Assembly: GCA_048940445.1 (NCBI GenBank)
Contig: JBHLON010000033.1
Coordinates: 1 to 34,463 of the forward strand
Source of the DNA: Promethearchaeota archaeon
Lineage (GTDB): Archaea; Asgardarchaeota; Lokiarchaeia; Sigyniarchaeales; SOKP01
DNA length: 34,463 nt
Reading direction: 5' to 3'
The translations under genes and the position numbers were made by a program. Under the pieces are notes generated by a model. It was not told where the DNA came from. It worked only from the letters and a program-made list of their open reading frames with translations, and made no database searches. The number at the start of each line of letters is the position of its first letter. Positions within the stretch are counted from its first letter, which is position 1. Below are positions 28,837 through 34,463 of this stretch, piece by piece.

Positions 28837-29871
28837 TCATTTTAAAATAATCATTTTATCAATTTTTTGATCTGTCAGTAAAATTCGATAGTATTCTTTG
28901 TTTTTTCTAAAAGTGACTCTTTCTAATTTACCTTCAACTAAAACCGTCTCTCCTTTAATAGCCTGCTCACAGAATCTCCCTCTATAAGATGCCACTTCAT
29001 AAATGTCATCTAGATTAATTTGATCTGTATCAATCTTATTAATTTTTAATGGTTTTATTTTATAGGAACAAGGGGTAAAAATCGCATTTAAAGAATCACT
29101 AATTTTTGCCTCAATCTCGATTCTTCCCATATTCTTATATAAATAGTCGTAATAGGTTCCTTTCCAGTCATTGGGGCTTTTTAAATATCTAATAAAAAAT
29201 TCAAACCCCTTATACATACCTTGATGTAATTTCCGTCTTTCAAATTGCAGAAACTTATCAAATGGTATAGCTGAACCACCTGCTCTCCATTGGTAATGAG
29301 ACAAATATTCTTGCTGAGTAAATTTTCTGCAATACATATCATTACTTAAGATAGTTGCTAGATTTTCTTGAAAATTTAGACTTGTTTCAGTTCCATAAAT
29401 TATTAAATCAATATCAGATTTTTCCCTACTCAATCCAACCATTTGGGATCCTGTTATACCAATTGCATGTTTCGGGATACCTCCTTTTTCAATAAATAAT
29501 TTGCACATCTCGATTGAACACTTTTCAAGATGATTAGTTTTTGTTTTCCTACAGAGGTTTTGATAATATTCAAGCGGAGAATAAATTTTTTTTATTTCCC
29601 TGTTTCTAACACCTTGGAGCTCGATGTCAAACTGATTAGAAAAAAAAAGAAATTTTGGATAGTTTTTTCTTAAGAATAAGTATCTCTCTGTTAAATCATA
29701 AATTTTTTTATATTTTTTTCCATACTTAATGCGATCCCCATCTGAACTTGGATAGAACCGAATAAAGCATACTTTACGATCAGGTGGATGATGGATTCCT
29801 TTTACATCGAAGAAAAGATTATTATTTCTTGTTTCGATATAATCTCCTTCAATTCCTTTTGGAATTTTCAT
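28837..29871 (-). CDS. Pol-beta superfamily nucleotidyltransferase (archaeal COG1665-like)
   Basis: GITGS..SDIDL.IYG motif; N-terminal EGD....F.VKG..HP; C-terminal OB-like segment. Confidence 0.85.
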   Translation of the reverse strand: MKIPKGIEGDYIETRNNNLFFDVKGIHHPPDRKVCFIRFYPSSDGDRIKYGKKYKKIYDLTERYLFLRKNYPKFLFFSNQFDIELQGVRNREIKKIYSPLEYYQNLCRKTKTNHLEKCSIEMCKLFIEKGGIPKHAIGITGSQMVGLSREKSDIDLIIYGTETSLNFQENLATILSNDMYCRKFTQQEYLSHYQWRAGGSAIPFDKFLQFERRKLHQGMYKGFEFFIRYLKSPNDWKGTYYDYLYKNMGRIEIEAKISDSLNAIFTPCSYKIKPLKINKIDTDQINLDDIYEVASYRGRFCEQAIKGETVLVEGKLERVTFRKNKEYYRILLTDQKIDKMIILK

Positions 29872-29892: not shown

Positions 29893-30975
29893 TTAATATT
29901 TTGAAGGAGTTTTTGATTTTATTTTATATTTTGGTATCTCTTTAACCTTTCTTAATTCATTCTCAAATACTCTTTTTTCTTTAAGAAATCTCTCTTTGTC
30001 ATTCTCTAATTTTTCTCTTTCCCTTCTAATAGTATCTTTTTCATTACTAATATTTACCTTTTCTTTTTCTAATTGTTTTATTTCATTGTTTAATCCTTTG
30101 TATTTATCTTCTAATCCACTGATTTTATGTTCTAATGAAAAAAATGTGTTTTCTGCCTTTGGGACTTTCTTATCTAACTCACTTAATCTTGCCTCTTGTG
30201 TTCGTTTCTTCCGTTCTAAATCTTTTACATCATTTTCAACTTTGTCTCGAAATTTTTCTAAGTCTGTTCTTTTCTTTTCAATTTCACGATTTTTATCTTT
30301 TAGGTCTTTTCGTTTATAACGTAATTTTTCTTTTTCATCCTTTAATTTTCTTCTCTCATCATTGATCCTATTTTTTTCATCAACAATTTCTTTTTTCATA
30401 TCACCTATTTCTTTTTTCAGATTGTCTCTATCTTTACCCAATGCTTTTGTCTCATTTCTTAAATCAAGCAGTTCAGCTTCTAATTTTTCAATGGTTCTCT
30501 CTAAAGCTTCCTCTCTCCTTTCCATTCCTGGAATTTTAGTTTTTATTTGTTTAATGTGCGACTCTGCTCTTTCTTTTTCTTTTCTTAAGTCATCCTTATC
30601 CTTTTCTAACGCAGCTTTTAATTTACTTAGTTCGGTATTCTTTTGATCTAATTCTCGCTCTTTTGAATCTAGATCATTTCTATATTGTTTTACTTCATTT
30701 TTCATTCTTTGTAATTCATTTTGTAAGTTTCCATGTTGATCTAAAAGGTCTTTAACTTCAAGTTCTTTTTCTTTTCTTTTCTTTTCAAGATCTTTAATAT
30801 TATCCTTATATCCTTCAATTTTTTCGATTAATTTTTCCCATTCAACTTTCTCTTTCTTTAATTTTACTCTTTCTTGCTTTATCTGTTTCAATAATTTAGC
30901 ATCTGGAACAATATCTAATGTTTCTTCTGGTGTTTTTTCTCGAATTTGATATTTAGGTATTTTATTTTCTTTCAT
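29893..30975 (-). CDS. Long coiled-coil protein with matching IPKY..KTP end motifs
   Basis: ~320 aa of K/E/R-rich heptads; N-term KIPKYQIREKTP and C-term EIPKYKIKSKTP; no ATPase motif and no TM segment. Confidence 0.85.
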   Translation of the reverse strand: MKENKIPKYQIREKTPEETLDIVPDAKLLKQIKQERVKLKKEKVEWEKLIEKIEGYKDNIKDLEKKRKEKELEVKDLLDQHGNLQNELQRMKNEVKQYRNDLDSKERELDQKNTELSKLKAALEKDKDDLRKEKERAESHIKQIKTKIPGMERREEALERTIEKLEAELLDLRNETKALGKDRDNLKKEIGDMKKEIVDEKNRINDERRKLKDEKEKLRYKRKDLKDKNREIEKKRTDLEKFRDKVENDVKDLERKKRTQEARLSELDKKVPKAENTFFSLEHKISGLEDKYKGLNNEIKQLEKEKVNISNEKDTIRREREKLENDKERFLKEKRVFENELRKVKEIPKYKIKSKTPSKY

Positions 30976-31155
30976 TGTATCTATTTAATTATTCTTTCTT
31001 AATATTTAGATAATTAAGCAATATTTCTAAATTTTTTGTACCTAAATGACATATTTTATGATTTATTTATATATTAAGAGAATTATTATTTATATACAAT
31101 ATATTGAGATTAAGTTTAAAATTATTTTAATTATCTGTATTTAGGTGGTAAATCT

Positions 31156-31533
31156 ATGGGTTTTGATGAAGAATTTGATGATGAATTTGATGAAGATTTA
31201 GATGAAGATTTAGATGAACCTTCTACTAAAACTCCTACTGAAGAGGTTAAATCCAAGACCCCTAGTGTAAAACCAGTTGTTGAAGGAAAAAAGATTTCAG
31301 TATTCTTTTTATCAACTATAGGACCTGGGGAGAAAAAGCAAAAACTTTTAGTTTATACAGGAAACAAAATAGGAGAAATAAAAAAAACTGTAGCTAATTT
31401 ATTTGGTCTAGATCCTGCAGATTTTCATTTGTCTTCTGGAGGGGTTACTATGGAAGAAGATGCTGCATTAGCTGAATATAATGTAGCAGAAGGAGATGAT
31501 ATTTTATTAATTCCAGCAAGTACAGCGGGTTAG
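31156..31533 (+). CDS. Ubiquitin-like protein 1 (acidic N-tail, ends LIPASTAG)
   Basis: IGEIKK..FHLSSGGVTMEED..L.EYNV..GDDILLI parallels ubiquitin IENVKA..QRLIFAGKQLED..L.DYNI..ESTLHLV; terminal Gly directly before the stop; AGGTGG SD-like motif. Confidence 0.88.
   Translation: MGFDEEFDDEFDEDLDEDLDEPSTKTPTEEVKSKTPSVKPVVEGKKISVFFLSTIGPGEKKQKLLVYTGNKIGEIKKTVANLFGLDPADFHLSSGGVTMEEDAALAEYNVAEGDDILLIPASTAG
31162..31218 (+). repeat. 12-bp imperfect tandem coding repeat, (F/L)D(E/D)(E/D) x ~5
   Basis: tttgatgaagaa tttgatgatgaa tttgatgaagat ttagatgaagat ttagatgaa. Confidence 0.85.
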
Positions 31534-31579
31534 ACATGCCTGGACGATGTGAACAAGTGACTTATTGAAAGTTAAATTT

Positions 31580-32386
31580 TCATTTTTTTTCTTTTCTGGA
31601 AGGAATTAAGACAATCTCATCGTCATCATCTAAGTTATATTCAACCATTTTCAAATTTTCTTGTAAGATTAAACCTCCAGACGAGAGTACAAAATTACTT
31701 AAATCGTAATTGAATAGAACTCCCAGTTTCTCCTTGATTTCATTTACTAACTCAGAAGTTTCAATAATAATTATTTTAGTTTTTTCACCAGATTCGATTA
31801 AAGATCTGACATAAACTCGTATTCTATCTTGCATTCCAATATTTATTTTAGGGGGAGTGAAGATAATTAGTTGATCAGGATTATCTTTATTCTTTAACAT
31901 ATCCTCAATTAATTGCTTTCTTTCTTGAGGAGAAAAATACAATAATTCCCTTAAAAAAAAAATTTTGTCCATTTTTGAAAGATTTAGAAGATCAATTTTC
32001 TCCAATTCTTCTAAATTAAAAACTGAGAAGAGATAATCATCCATTGAGGGTATCTCATTATATGATTCATGTGAATTTGCATAGTTATCTATTAGAGGCA
32101 TTGCATCAAAATAATCCTCAATAAATTCACTTGTTTTTTTCCTTAATGATTTTTGTTTAGGCATAAATTTAGGTTTTGTAATCCTTTTATTAGGGACATA
32201 TTTAGACTTTTTTATAATATAAAAAGTACCAGTAGATACTACTGCTACACTACTAATCGTAAAAATAAGATAAAAAGGGAAGGATTCTATTTTTAATAAG
32301 AACAGAATTAGATAAACCAATATGAACATTGTATAAAGAGTAATAATTCCTATAATTCTAAATCTTTTTATCATGATTTTTTTCAT
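31580..32386 (-). CDS. Two-TM membrane protein with C-terminal ubiquitin-like domain lacking a terminal Gly
   Basis: Two N-terminal hydrophobic helices; C-terminal SGEK..VNEIKEKLG.LF....F.LSSGG....EYNL..DDEIVLIPSRKEKK aligns with the neighbouring Ubls. Confidence 0.85.
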   Translation of the reverse strand: MKKIMIKRFRIIGIITLYTMFILVYLILFLLKIESFPFYLIFTISSVAVVSTGTFYIIKKSKYVPNKRITKPKFMPKQKSLRKKTSEFIEDYFDAMPLIDNYANSHESYNEIPSMDDYLFSVFNLEELEKIDLLNLSKMDKIFFLRELLYFSPQERKQLIEDMLKNKDNPDQLIIFTPPKINIGMQDRIRVYVRSLIESGEKTKIIIIETSELVNEIKEKLGVLFNYDLSNFVLSSGGLILQENLKMVEYNLDDDDEIVLIPSRKEKK

Positions 32387-32448
32387 TTCTTTACAATTTT
32401 CTAATTTTTTATTTAAAATTTAAATTCAGTTGGTATAAATTTGAAATT

Positions 32449-33126
32449 TTAGTTTGATCTATTATTGATCAATTTGAGAATGTAATGATATTTTTCTAAA
32501 TCTAATTCAAATAAAGGTCTTTTATTTTCCTTTTCAACATTTATAATTTTTAAATTAGTTAAGACCTTTATGTACTTCTTAACTGTATTATAATTTTTTT
32601 TCAATTCTTTTGTGATTTTTGTTAATTTTACTTTTTTATTTTCTACTTTCATGAATTCAATTATTTCTTTTACGATATCTTGATTGAGATAATAATAAGG
32701 CTCATCTAATTCTGGATTTGAATCATATTCAAAAACAACTCGTTGATTTTCAATCTTTCGTGATCGTGTAAGTTGGAATTTCTCTAAGCATGATAAATGC
32801 CACAGAGCTTGATTACTCCCAATATTTATAGCTTTCATGATCTCATTAATATTTGATGGATTTTTTTTGATGTAATTGTATATTTCATTTCTTATTGGAT
32901 GTTCAATTATATTATTTTTCATTAGTTTTGTTCCAGGAATTATTATTCGTTTTTTGATTAGATTCTTTATGATTTTCTCAATCTTATTTCTATTTAAGTA
33001 AGGATAAGCTCTCGATCTATTATTAATAAAAGATATAATATTCTCTAATGAAAAGAAAGGTTTCTTATTTAGGTATTCTTTTACTAGTTCAAGAACAACA
33101 GAATCAACTTTATCTGGAGAACTCAT
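32449..33126 (-). CDS. Tandem winged-helix transcription regulator (ArsR-like/COG3398-like)
   Basis: R.EIYNYI..NP..INEI......WHL..LE.F and a second HTH LTKITKELKKNYNTVKKYIK.L. Confidence 0.82.
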   Translation of the reverse strand: MSSPDKVDSVVLELVKEYLNKKPFFSLENIISFINNRSRAYPYLNRNKIEKIIKNLIKKRIIIPGTKLMKNNIIEHPIRNEIYNYIKKNPSNINEIMKAINIGSNQALWHLSCLEKFQLTRSRKIENQRVVFEYDSNPELDEPYYYLNQDIVKEIIEFMKVENKKVKLTKITKELKKNYNTVKKYIKVLTNLKIINVEKENKRPLFELDLEKYHYILKLINNRSN

Positions 33127-33389
33127 AAGATATAATTTTTATTTTGTTTATAAATTTAATTTAGACATCCAAATCTTCTCTCTAAAACGATCTTTTCTAG
33201 TTCATATATATTATTAGATATTCATTTAATTTATAGATATATCTTAGAAAGAGCCAAGCTTCAATGCTATTTGTTTCTAAAGAAGTTGATAAAAAGTTCA
33301 AAATCATTCCAATTGGTTTTATAATATCTTGTTATTGCAATTTTATTAAGTTTAATTAAAAAAATAACAAAATAACGAAAGTGATATAA

Positions 33390-33716
33390 ATGAGTTTTAA
33401 AGATGAATTTGATGAAGATTTAGAACCTGTTAAATCTAAAACACCAGTATCTAAAACTCCTGCTGCGGGAAAGAAATTAACTTTATATTTTATGTCAACA
33501 ATCGGACCTGGTGAAAAAAAGGAAAAATTAATCGTAAATGATGCTAATCAAGTGAATGACATCAAACAAACTTTAGGAAATCTATTTGGACTCGATCCTG
33601 ATGAATTTCATTTATCATCTGGTGGTGTTACTATGGAAGAAGATAGTCAATTAAGAGATTACAATCTGAGTAATGGTGACGACATTCTTTTAATTCCAGC
33701 AAGTACAGCTGGGTAA
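33390..33716 (+). CDS. Ubiquitin-like protein 2 (acidic N-tail, ends LIPASTAG)
   Basis: 56/82 identical to Ubl1 over the beta-grasp domain (hand count); directly upstream of the E1 gene. Confidence 0.9.
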   Translation: MSFKDEFDEDLEPVKSKTPVSKTPAAGKKLTLYFMSTIGPGEKKEKLIVNDANQVNDIKQTLGNLFGLDPDEFHLSSGGVTMEEDSQLRDYNLSNGDDILLIPASTAG

Positions 33717-33778: not shown

Positions 33779-33798
33779 ATTTATTAAAGGTGACTATA

Positions 33799-34463
33799 AT
33801 GAATAATAAATCAGAGTTTTTTGGCAAGGGATTATCAAGCGAAGAAAGAAATTTGTATGATCGCCAATTTCGCCTTGAAGGATGGTCTCAGAAAATAGTA
33901 AAAAACTCGAGAATATTAATTGCGGGTGTGGGAGGTTTAGGATGTGAGATTGCTAAGAATTTAGCTATGTTAGGTATAGGTCACTTAGATCTTGTAGATT
34001 TAGATATTATTGAATATTCTAATTTAAACCGACAAATACTTTTCACAGGGGTAAAGGTCGGTGTCCCTAAAGCGATTGCAGCTGCTAAAAAGTTAAAAGA
34101 AATAAATCCCAACATTATTGTTAAGGGATATCACACTTCACTTGAGAGACTAGATCCTGCAATTTATCAAGTAGCTGATGTGGTCATAGGAGGCCTTGAT
34201 TCAATGAATGCGCGTTTAAACTTAAATGCCCAATGTATAAGATTTAGAAAGCCATTAGTAGATGGAGGAGTCTCTGGTTATCATGGTCATATATATACAA
34301 TTTTTCCCTATCAGAATGCCTGTTATGAATGTGACCCGCTGCCTGTAATGGAAAGTGATGAAATGGCAGCATGTACTGTTGTTGGCATACCTCGTAAGAG
34401 AATTCATTGTGTTTTTAAGGGAGATATGGCATTTAAAGAAAAATTTGATAGAGATCCAAATCC
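33799..34463 (+). CDS. Ubiquitin-like activating enzyme E1 (ThiF/UBA family, UBA2/UBA3-like), 3'-truncated by the window end
   Basis: Read by hand; ATG after AGGTGA; YDRQ, GVGGLGCE, VDLDIIEYSNLNRQ, GLDS..AR, DGG, CYEC, then AACTVVGIPRKRIHC; open to the window end. Confidence 0.95.
   Translation, partial: MNNKSEFFGKGLSSEERNLYDRQFRLEGWSQKIVKNSRILIAGVGGLGCEIAKNLAMLGIGHLDLVDLDIIEYSNLNRQILFTGVKVGVPKAIAAAKKLKEINPNIIVKGYHTSLERLDPAIYQVADVVIGGLDSMNARLNLNAQCIRFRKPLVDGGVSGYHGHIYTIFPYQNACYECDPLPVMESDEMAACTVVGIPRKRIHCVFKGDMAFKEKFDRDPN

What the first reader, a model, noticed from the sequence alone, without database searches (positions are those of the whole stretch)
29893..33461. Shared KSKTP linear motif links the coiled-coil protein with both Ubl tails
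Seen: coiled-coil C-term KIKSKTPS and N-term IREKTPEE; Ubl1 STKTPTEEVKSKTPS; Ubl2 PVKSKTPVSKTPA. Each of the three proteins has two KTP copies in a predicted disordered region, written with different codons, so conservation is at protein level. Inference: a common recognition site. Options are a conjugation-acceptor lysine (VKSK/IKSK recalls the psi-K SUMO consensus, and SUMO chains form on N-tail lysines) or a proline-directed Thr phosphosite. This would make the coiled-coil protein a substrate and the tails chain-forming sites.
Basis: partly seen in the sequence, partly recalled or inferred. Interest (0 to 1): 0.72.

Follow-up and report, generated by a model that had tools for sequence, protein, structure and literature searches.

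The report
Shared lysine motif, Asgard ubiquitin-like operon
In this Asgard (Lokiarchaeia) archaeon, two ubiquitin-like tags and the rod-shaped protein encoded next to them share a short, strictly conserved Lys-Thr-Pro motif in their floppy ends; it probably marks where the tag is attached (or where a tagging enzyme docks), which would name a first natural partner for this eukaryote-like system, but this is untested.

Summary
Observation confirmed. All six KTP copies are at the stated places, in predicted disordered ends, and use different codons.

KTP alone is at chance in this proteome (161 seen, 153 expected). The six-residue form psi-[KR]-[ST]-K-T-P is not (5 seen, 0.58 expected; 3 of the 5 in this locus).

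The main evidence is conservation. In 40 related loci spanning seven families of the class, the motif sits in the Ubl N-tails. It also sits at both ends of the divergently transcribed coiled-coil protein, even where the rod is only 22-34% identical.

- The central Lys is never Arg (432 K, 0 true R).
- Thr is replaceable in about 10-30% of copies.
- A non-conjugatable membrane Ubl paralogue lacks the motif (0 of 27).
- The motif is almost private to these two protein families.
- One closed genome without the operon keeps only a decayed remnant of the rod gene.

Best reading (about 0.4): an acceptor-lysine code, analogous to SUMO but not the psi-K-x-E consensus. The main rival is an enzyme-docking motif (0.3). 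A Thr-Pro phosphosite is unlikely to be the conserved function.

I found no published description. This scan flagged the same motif before in at least seven other genomes. Nothing here is tested by experiment.

The parts
29893..30975 (-). Coiled-coil protein (CC), 360 aa. Three long helices (residues 25-145, 151-269, 274-344) with disordered ends that carry the motif.
   Evidence: ORF. Only generic coiled-coil Pfam hits, all below cut-off. AlphaFold2. Syntenic orthologues in 33 of 40 related loci.
30928..30945 (-). CC N-terminal motif copy, IREKTP (residues 11-16).
   Evidence: A slightly looser motif form (-2 K/R/H/Q/A/N; -1 S/T/E/A/D) is present in 24 of 25 genus orthologues and 5 of 8 other-family orthologues. 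One more (L063) has it upstream of the first ATG.
29905..29922 (-). CC C-terminal motif copy, IKSKTP (residues 352-357), three residues before a terminal Tyr.
   Evidence: The same looser form is present in 22 of 25 genus and 8 of 8 other-family orthologues, and is multiplied in some, e.g. IKTKTPGIKTKTPGIRTKTPR.
30529..30546 (-). Internal degenerate copy, IKTKIP (residues 144-149), at the first helix break.
   Evidence: Conserved as IK[TS]K[IL]PGME throughout the genus. Coordinates computed from residue numbers.
30160..30177 (-). Internal degenerate copy, LDKKVP (residues 267-272), at the second helix break.
   Evidence: K-[IV]-P-x-x-E is conserved across families. It may be a plain helix N-cap. 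Coordinates computed from residue numbers.
30976..31155 (.). 180-bp divergent intergenic region between CC and Ubl1, presumably holding both promoters.
   Evidence: Gene coordinates. The divergent CC/Ubl arrangement is kept across families. No promoter analysis was done.
31156..31533 (+). Ubl1, 125 aa: acidic N-tail, two motif copies, ubiquitin-type beta-grasp ending ...LIPASTAG.
   Evidence: Pfam ubiquitin E=2.6e-5, 24.3 bits against a 25.4-bit cut-off. Orthologues.
31219..31236 (+). Ubl1 motif copy 1, PSTKTP.
31246..31263 (+). Ubl1 motif copy 2, VKSKTP.
31580..32386 (-). Membrane-anchored Ubl paralogue, 268 aa. It ends ...LIPSRKEKK, with no terminal Gly, and serves as an internal control without the motif.
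   Evidence: 0 of 27 orthologues have K-x-P ahead of the beta-grasp.
32449..33126 (-). Putative double winged-helix protein. It belongs to the genus-specific insertion between Ubl1 and Ubl2.
   Evidence: Weak Pfam wHTH hits, all below cut-off. Found only in genus loci.
33390..33716 (+). Ubl2, 108 aa: short acidic tail, two overlapping motif copies, beta-grasp at residues 29-103, ends ...LIPASTAG.
   Evidence: The nearest fold is Caldiarchaeum ubiquitin. The nearest sequences in the PDB are ubiquitin itself.
33429..33446 (+). Ubl2 motif copy 1, VKSKTP.
33444..33461 (+). Ubl2 motif copy 2, PVSKTP. Its Lys22 and Pro24 are at least 90% conserved across the whole family alignment.
33790..34463 (+). 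N-terminal half of the ThiF-type E1, cut by the contig end. The operon continues on contig C70 with the rest of E1, an E2, a JAB protease and a membrane RING-like protein.
   Evidence: Pfam ThiF 2.6e-51. Continuation on C70. Pfam domain calls for E2, JAB and RING come from relatives.

Best explanation
The motif psi(-3)-x-[S/T/E](-1)-K(0)-T(+1)-P(+2) is a short linear motif dedicated to this Asgard ubiquitin-like system.

Shown here: the operon is Ubl, E1, E2, JAB protease and a membrane RING-like protein, with the coiled-coil gene transcribed divergently.

Inferred: the invariant lysine is the site to which the Ubl's C-terminal Gly (...STAG) is attached, and the E2, or the E2 with the RING protein, reads the motif. 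On that reading the copies in the Ubl's own disordered N-tail are chain-forming sites. The copies at both disordered ends of the coiled-coil rod would make that protein the system's dedicated, co-inherited target. The logic is that of SUMO, where one consensus occurs on SUMO2/3 and Smt3 tails and on substrates, but the sequence code here is different.
For: 1. Conservation far beyond the surroundings.
- K22 and P24 of Ubl2 are at least 90% conserved across a 44-sequence family alignment, like core residues, while their neighbours vary.
- 163 of 185 distinct Ubl tails have KTP and 177 of 185 have K-x-P.
- CC orthologues only 22-34% identical keep the motif at both ends, often multiplied.

2. The lysine is chemically irreplaceable. 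In K/R-x-P contexts there are 432 Lys and 0 genuine Arg, although Arg makes up 15% of K+R in these tails.

3. The motif tracks conjugation competence. The membrane Ubl paralogue without a terminal Gly lacks it in 27 of 27 orthologues.

4. It lies in disordered, accessible ends and is not docked in cis on the beta-grasp.

5. It travels with the Ubl domain, about 8-15 residues before the first strand. This holds in tandem poly-Ubl proteins and in fusions to Zn-ribbon/coiled-coil, Roadblock and CDC48_N-vWA domains.

6. Genetic linkage.
- The divergent CC/Ubl-E1 arrangement is kept across families.
- In family f4 the CC sits directly upstream of a vWA-Ubl fusion instead.
- A closed genome (G044) with no Ubl match and no operon-type E1 keeps only a roughly 25-codon relic of the CC 3' end behind stop codons.

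7. Established knowledge (mine, not tested here): SUMO2/3 Lys11 and Smt3 Lys11/15/19 in the N-tail are consensus sites read by Ubc9.
Against: - No experiment or complex model shows the lysine is modified. Multi-chain modelling was not available.
- The motif is almost private to two protein families: 5 strict hits in this proteome, and chance-level DNA-pattern counts in five relatives. A general acceptor consensus would be expected on many substrates. Privacy fits a dedicated docking pair just as well.
- Strict Lys conservation can also come from a tight reader pocket.
- In Hodarchaeales-labelled loci the Ubl tails carry the motif but no coiled-coil neighbour was seen. The tail motif therefore has a role that does not need the rod.
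- The related sequences are not independent, so the counts overstate the support.
Confidence: 0.4

Rival explanations
1. The motif is a non-covalent docking site for one component of the cascade: the homodimeric ThiF-type E1, the E2, the JAB protease or the membrane RING protein. The Ubl tail uses it to be recruited. The rod carries copies at both ends and acts as a scaffold, tether or competitor rather than a substrate.
For: - The motif is private to two partner proteins, as a dedicated docking pair would be.
- Tandem copies suggest avidity.
- It is present on Ubls fused behind large domains and in lineages without the rod.
- It is absent from the non-conjugatable paralogue, which would not need enzymes.
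- It lies in disordered ends.
Against: - Lys is never exchanged for Arg in 432 instances. That is unusual for a purely electrostatic contact.
- AlphaFold2 does not dock the tail onto the Ubl domain in the monomer model.
- No candidate reader domain was identified.
- JAB carries no conserved copy of the motif, and E1, E2, JAB and RING carry no KTP in the loci inspected, so there is no sign of competing self-binding.
Confidence: 0.3
2. The invariant Lys, or the motif as a whole, is read or modified by something outside the operon. Examples are another lysine modification, or a receptor such as the proteasome, Cdc48 or ESCRT machinery that recognises both the tag and the rod.
For: - Strict Lys and Pro conservation.
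- Some Ubl fusions carry a CDC48_N-like domain.
- Asgard ESCRT-I proteins bind ubiquitin (PMC9192718).
Against: - No such gene is conserved next to the locus. Only CC, Ubl, E1, E2, JAB and RING are kept across families.
- Co-loss of the CC with the operon ties the motif to the cascade itself.
Confidence: 0.13
3. The motif is a proline-directed Thr phosphosite that switches the tails on or off.
For: - Thr-Pro is present in about 70-90% of copies, depending on protein and end.
- At least one intact KTP is kept in 163 of 185 tails.
Against: - Thr is replaced by V, A, I, H, K, Q, L or Y in many copies while Lys and Pro stay fixed.
- Whole Ubl1 tails in four species have only KAP, KSP or KVP.
- One Ubl subfamily (VSTAG type) uses K[VASH]P throughout.
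- No kinase is linked to the locus.
Confidence: 0.07
4. There is no shared function. K-x-P would be a helix-capping or linker feature of the rod, and the Ubl tail would be a K/S/T/P-rich linker that resembles it by convergence.
For: - Nearly every proline in the rod lies in a K-x-P context.
- The two internal copies sit exactly at helix breaks followed by Glu, like N-caps.
Against: - The terminal copies share six positions with the Ubl tails across class-level divergence.
- The motif is almost absent from the rest of the proteome.
- It never arises at both ends in shuffles.
- The two genes are linked and lost together.
Confidence: 0.05

Closest known systems
SUMO pathway: the psi-K-x-[D/E] consensus read by the E2 Ubc9, and chains through consensus lysines in the N-tails of SUMO2/3 (Lys11) and yeast Smt3 (Lys11/15/19). 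This is from my own knowledge, not tested here.
   Same: - A short lysine-centred motif occurs both in the modifier's disordered N-terminal tail and on another protein.
- Tail copies are repeated, e.g. EEVKAKTP x3 in some Ubl1 orthologues, reminiscent of the repeated EVKP units of the Smt3 tail.
   Different: - The sequence code differs: hydrophobic residue at -3, Ser/Thr at -1, Thr at +1, Pro at +2, and no acidic residue required.
- The beta-grasp is ubiquitin-type, not SUMO-type.
- The motif is private to one partner protein instead of being spread over hundreds of substrates.
- Modification of the lysine is not shown.
Archaeal eukaryote-like ubiquitin operon of Caldiarchaeum subterraneum (Ub, E1, E2, small RING E3, Rpn11; PMC5654768, PMC6043591) and the Asgard ubiquitin clusters (PMC9192718).
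   Same: - Same gene set and order: Ubl, ThiF E1, UQ_con E2, JAB and a RING-like protein.
- The best structural match of Ubl2 is Caldiarchaeum ubiquitin.
- Some orthologues carry short C-terminal extensions after ...STAG. I infer that a protease, most plausibly the JAB enzyme, removes them.
   Different: - The Ubl ends in Ala-Gly, not Gly-Gly.
- It carries an acidic N-tail with the K-T-P motif.
- The RING protein is polytopic-membrane.
- There is a conserved divergent coiled-coil partner gene. I found no mention of the tail, the motif or the partner in the papers searched.
Operon-encoded dedicated targets of bacterial ubiquitin-like systems, e.g. CD-NTase conjugation in type II CBASS (PMC10449767, listed).
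   Same: A small conjugation operon with a neighbouring gene as the likely single, dedicated target.
   Different: - Different enzymes and modifier.
- No shared linear motif between modifier and target is known there.
- Target status here is only inferred.

Membership tests
Archaeal/Asgard eukaryote-like ubiquitin operon (Caldiarchaeum type) | Ubiquitin-type beta-grasp modifier with an exposed or processable C-terminal Gly | tested here: met
   - Pfam ubiquitin for Ubl2 at 25.9 bits, cut-off 25.4.
- AlphaFold2 beta-grasp at residues 29-103.
- Foldseek top hits are Caldiarchaeum ubiquitin, E=4.8e-8.
- PDB profile hits are ubiquitin.
- ...STAG is invariant, with or without short extensions.
Archaeal/Asgard eukaryote-like ubiquitin operon (Caldiarchaeum type) | Adjacent ThiF-type E1, UBC-fold E2 and JAB/Rpn11-like protease | tested here: met
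   - E1: ThiF 2.6e-51 in the window.
- E2: UQ_con 1.9e-25, and JAB 2.5e-13, in the syntenic relative L031.
- The same genes lie on G000 contig C70, which overlaps the window's end.
Archaeal/Asgard eukaryote-like ubiquitin operon (Caldiarchaeum type) | RING-type E3 | tested here: inconclusive
   The gene after JAB encodes a polytopic membrane protein with a Cys-rich C-terminal finger. The Pfam RING hits in L059 are below cut-off: zf-RING_16 at 20.7 bits against 27.4.
SUMO-type consensus acceptor site (psi-K-x-[D/E]) | Hydrophobic residue directly before the acceptor Lys and an acidic residue at +2 | tested here: not met
   Position -1 is S, T or E. The hydrophobic residue is at -3. Position +2 is Pro in every instance.
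SUMO-type consensus acceptor site (psi-K-x-[D/E]) | The same site on the modifier's N-tail and on substrates | tested here: met
   The motif is on the Ubl N-tails and on both CC termini across families. This is analogy only, because substrate status is not shown.
SUMO-type consensus acceptor site (psi-K-x-[D/E]) | The lysine is covalently modified by the modifier | not testable with these tools
   This needs reconstitution or proteomics. The only indirect evidence is that Lys is never Arg and that the motif is absent from the non-conjugatable paralogue.
SUMO-type consensus acceptor site (psi-K-x-[D/E]) | Consensus used on many different substrates | tested here: not met
   - Strict motif: 5 hits in 3403 ORFs, 3 of them in this locus. 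Relaxed motif: 16 against 7.65 expected.
- DNA-pattern counts are at control level in five relatives.
Proline-directed phosphorylation site ([S/T]-P) | A phosphorylatable residue always precedes the Pro | tested here: not met
   Position +1 is Thr in about 70-90% of copies, depending on protein and end, and otherwise S, V, A, I, H, K, Q, L or Y. Lys and Pro are fixed.
SIM-type Ubl-interacting motif (hydrophobic core with acidic flank that adds a strand to the beta-grasp) | A core of 3-4 hydrophobic residues, docking on the Ubl domain | tested here: not met
   The motif has a single hydrophobic position. AlphaFold2 leaves the tail undocked, with pLDDT below 50 for residues 1-23. Binding in trans could not be modelled.

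The most novel reading that the evidence does not exclude
The K-T-P motif would be an enzyme-read 'attach here' code of an Asgard ubiquitin-like system. The tag would polymerise through its own tail lysines and be attached to both ends of a dedicated coiled-coil rod, at a membrane-bound RING ligase. That would give the first natural substrate and first acceptor consensus for archaeal eukaryote-like ubiquitylation. It would also show that SUMO-style consensus-directed conjugation and tail-linked chains existed in the archaeal relatives of eukaryotes.
Probability: 0.35. Interest if true: 0.82.

Novelty: new variant of a known kind. Interest (0 to 1): 0.62.

Why it matters
Asgard and Caldiarchaeum ubiquitin-like operons have been reconstituted in vitro. 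As far as I could find, their natural targets and any site specificity are unknown.

A conserved, nearly private lysine motif shared by the tag and a co-inherited neighbour gives a concrete candidate partner and a simple test: K-to-R mutants in a five-protein reconstitution.

If the lysine is the acceptor, this would be an archaeal counterpart of consensus-directed, tail-linked conjugation, which is so far known from SUMO. That would bear on how eukaryotic Ubl specificity arose. If it is a docking motif instead, it still names the first dedicated accessory protein of the system.

Tried and rejected
- KTP alone as the signal: rejected, because it is at chance in the proteome.
- Two other strict-motif carriers in G000:
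  - The OST3/6-like membrane protein (C61:88238-88750) keeps the segment EKIK[SGDV][KR]TPW in 30 orthologues, but Lys and Arg interchange there and the segment belongs to a longer family-specific block. I treat it as unrelated.
  - The C101 membrane protein has no Pfam family. Its orthologues were not followed.
- Other operon proteins as motif carriers: JAB has no conserved copy, and E1, E2, JAB and RING carry no KTP in the loci inspected.
- UFM1 kinship of the ...IPASTAG end: Pfam, PDB profile and fold searches all point to ubiquitin.
- Function of the rod: Pfam gives only sub-threshold generic coiled-coil hits. The ESM Atlas search gave nothing above noise, best score 0.80.
- The search for related loci returned only close Promethearchaeota relatives, and one contig look-up was too short. 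The wider range therefore rests on the representative search and NCBI labels.
- Covariation between motif variants in the Ubl and in the CC: no clear pattern.
- Modelling of complexes was not possible (single-chain tool, two jobs).

Full report
**What is in the window.** The window is a whole 34,463-base contig (C68) of a 3.64-Mb, 28% G+C assembly. Close relatives are labelled Promethearchaeota (Lokiarchaeia) in NCBI.

The finding's span holds these genes:
- a 360-aa coiled-coil protein, CC (29893-30975, minus strand)
- divergently, Ubl1 (31156-31533, plus strand)
- a membrane-anchored Ubl paralogue without a terminal Gly (31580-32386, minus strand)
- a putative double winged-helix protein (32449-33126, minus strand)
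- Ubl2 (33390-33716, plus strand)
- the first half of a ThiF-type E1 (33790 to the contig end)

The operon continues on contig C70 with the rest of E1, a UBC-fold E2, a JAB protease and a polytopic membrane protein with a C-terminal RING-like finger (Pfam on relatives). This is the known eukaryote-like archaeal ubiquitin operon type (PMC5654768, PMC6043591, PMC9192718). Ubl2's predicted fold matches Caldiarchaeum ubiquitin best, and its profile hits ubiquitin in the PDB.

**The observation.** The six KTP copies use different codons. All lie in ends that AlphaFold2 leaves disordered: CC residues 1-24 and 345-359, flanking three long helices, and Ubl2 residues 1-23, ahead of a confident beta-grasp.

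**Chance within this genome.** KTP alone is not enriched (161 observed, 153 expected in 3403 ORFs). Because Ubl1 and Ubl2 are paralogues, 'two KTP each' would by itself be weak evidence. The longer shared form [IVLM][KR][ST]KTP is rare: 5 observed against 0.58 expected, with 3 of the 5 in this locus. Shuffles of a genus CC orthologue (L031) gave a slightly looser motif at both ends in 0 of 20000 trials.

A search of 61 related genomes found the Ubl in 49. I fetched 40 syntenic loci.

Ubl tails:
- The Ubl tails keep the motif throughout the genus and in six other families of the class.
- A search of 1.8 billion representatives found it ahead of STAG-ended Ubl domains labelled Hodarchaeales, Sigynarchaeota, Heimdall- and Thorarchaeota. 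Those labels are as given by NCBI.
- In a 44-sequence alignment, Lys22 and Pro24 of Ubl2 are at least 90% conserved, as well as core residues, while the flanking tail varies.

The coiled-coil gene:
- It lies divergently next to the Ubl in 33 of the 40 loci. One further locus has a truncated copy, three loci are cut by contig ends, and three lack it.
- Orthologues only 22-34% identical in the rod still carry the motif at both ends, often two to five times in a row.

**The consensus.** The motif is psi(-3)-[K/R or variable](-2)-[S/T/E](-1)-K(0)-T(+1)-P(+2).

**What the substitution pattern says.** Across 249 distinct tails, the position before x-P is Lys 432 times and never a genuine Arg, although Arg is 15% of K+R there. 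Thr at +1 is replaced by V, A, S, I, H, K, Q, L or Y in roughly 10-30% of copies, depending on protein and end. Whole tails and one Ubl subfamily use K[VASH]P only. Lys and Pro are therefore the required residues. A phospho-Thr cannot be the conserved function. The V/I-adjacent Lys that recalled the SUMO psi-K is the variable one.

**Links to conjugation.**
- The membrane Ubl paralogue, which cannot be conjugated because it has no terminal Gly, lacks K-x-P ahead of its beta-grasp in 27 of 27 orthologues.
- The motif travels with conjugatable Ubl domains, about 8-15 residues before the first strand. This holds in tandem poly-Ubl proteins and in fusions behind Zn-ribbon/coiled-coil, Roadblock and CDC48_N-vWA domains.
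- The motif is nearly private. In G000 the only other strict carriers are two membrane proteins. One is an OST3/6-like protein where Lys and Arg interchange, so it is probably unrelated.
- The relaxed motif is only mildly enriched (16 against 7.65). DNA-pattern scans of five relatives are at control level, with hits falling inside the CC genes of four. Scans for paired KTP copies also hit the CC and Ubl genes.
- JAB has no conserved copy, and E1, E2, JAB and RING carry no KTP in the loci inspected.

**Genetic linkage beyond synteny.**
- In family f4 the CC sits directly upstream of a CDC48_N-vWA-Ubl fusion, not beside the free Ubl.
- In the closed genome G044, no Ubl match and no operon-type E1 orthologue were found. 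Only a relic of the CC 3' end remains behind stop codons (...NDLENHLRDINSKTPGIRTKTPYY).
- G037, G050 and G053 also lack the operon-type E1. The double-KTP scan, which has limited sensitivity, found no intact rod with paired motifs in G037, G050 or G044; the G053 and G056 hits were not inspected.
- Conversely, two Hodarchaeales-type loci have motif-bearing Ubls but no rod next to them. The tail motif is therefore older and wider than the partner.

**Mechanism.**
- Shown: a conserved, disordered, Lys/Pro-centred motif, private to a ubiquitin-type tag and its co-inherited neighbour, and absent from the non-conjugatable paralogue.
- Inferred, my best reading at about 0.4: the lysine is the acceptor read by the E2 or E3. 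That gives tail-linked Ubl chains and modification of both rod ends. This is the same logic as SUMO, but it is not the psi-K-x-E consensus.
- Main rival, about 0.3: a docking motif for a cascade enzyme, with the rod as a two-ended scaffold or competitor. The privacy of the motif and its presence without the rod in Hodarchaeales fit this at least as well.
- Only the never-Arg lysine tips the balance towards the acceptor reading. I could not model complexes, so the choice remains open.

**Prior notes and literature.** This scan has flagged the same motif in at least seven other genomes, with the same SUMO-like reading. Those are unchecked AI notes on related DNA and are not independent support. 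Here I re-tested conservation, the K/R asymmetry, co-loss, and whether other neighbours carry the motif (they do not in this lineage). Full-text searches found papers on the operon type but none mentioning the tail motif or the coiled-coil partner.

**Verdict.** It is a new variant within known ubiquitin-like systems, of good interest, and directly testable in vitro.

Noticed in passing
L188:5067-5160 (-) = G044:C1, about 594067-594160: A closed relative genome has no Ubl match and no operon-type E1. It keeps a roughly 25-codon relic of the coiled-coil gene's 3' end (...NDLENHLRDINSKTPGIRTKTPYY*) behind in-frame stops, between a 502-aa gene and a 326-aa gene with Cys-rich clusters. This suggests the rod decayed after the operon was lost.
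   Followed up: partly
window 31156-33716: The segment membrane-Ubl, double wHTH, Ubl2 is a genus-specific insertion between Ubl1 and E1. Other families have a single Ubl directly before E1.
   Followed up: partly
window 28837-29871 (-): A 344-aa protein with weak Pol-beta-type nucleotidyltransferase hits starts 21 bases after the CC stop on the same strand. It is syntenic throughout the genus but not in other families.
   Followed up: no
window 29893-30975 (-): All seven prolines of the rod follow a residue pair ending in I/V/T, and four of the seven are in K-x-P. The two internal ones (IKTKIPGME, LDKKVPKAE) sit exactly at the helix breaks, giving a three-segment rod of about 120, 119 and 71 residues.
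   Followed up: partly
G000:C61:88238-88750 (+) (L071:2001-2510): An OST3/OST6-like membrane protein has a conserved N-terminal segment, GSETVFEKIK[SGDV][KR]TPW[IV]FG. It looks like the motif but tolerates Arg, so it is probably a different element.
   Followed up: partly
P0121, P0122; P0126/P0127/P0130/P0138; P0124; P0151 and L186:692-2449; P0139: The STAG-type Ubl also occurs in several other architectures:
- tandem poly-Ubl precursors, each unit with its own acidic tail and motif
- fused behind a Zn-ribbon plus coiled-coil domain
- fused behind a Roadblock/LC7-like domain
- fused behind CDC48_N plus vWA
- fused behind a HerA-like ATPase (this last one without the motif)
   Followed up: partly
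alignment A1, C-terminal columns; L057, L062, L065, L066, L068, L070: G000's Ubls stop right after ...STAG. Many orthologues carry 1-5 extra residues (up to about 14 on one Ubl fusion), so they would need a processing protease, most plausibly the JAB enzyme. The Ala-Gly end is invariant.
   Followed up: no
G040:C234, G044:C1:3322498-3323817, G037:C57, G050:C1:1594513-1595823, G053:C69: A second, longer E1 paralogue (open frames of 532-573 aa, about 40% identical over the adenylation domain) is present in all five family-f2 genomes checked, whether or not they have the Ubl operon.
   Followed up: no
L190:3318-4193 (-) = G037:C71: In a genome without the operon, a protein that I judge by eye to be gelsolin-like (no family search run) carries SVKTPAVKTPS in a Ser/Pro-rich linker. 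This may be chance or an unrelated use of KTP.
   Followed up: no
L196:2124-3248 (+) = G000:C70: The RING-like protein of the operon is a polytopic membrane protein with a long Ser/Thr/Arg-rich linker before the Cys-rich finger. The ligase step is therefore probably membrane-bound.
   Followed up: no
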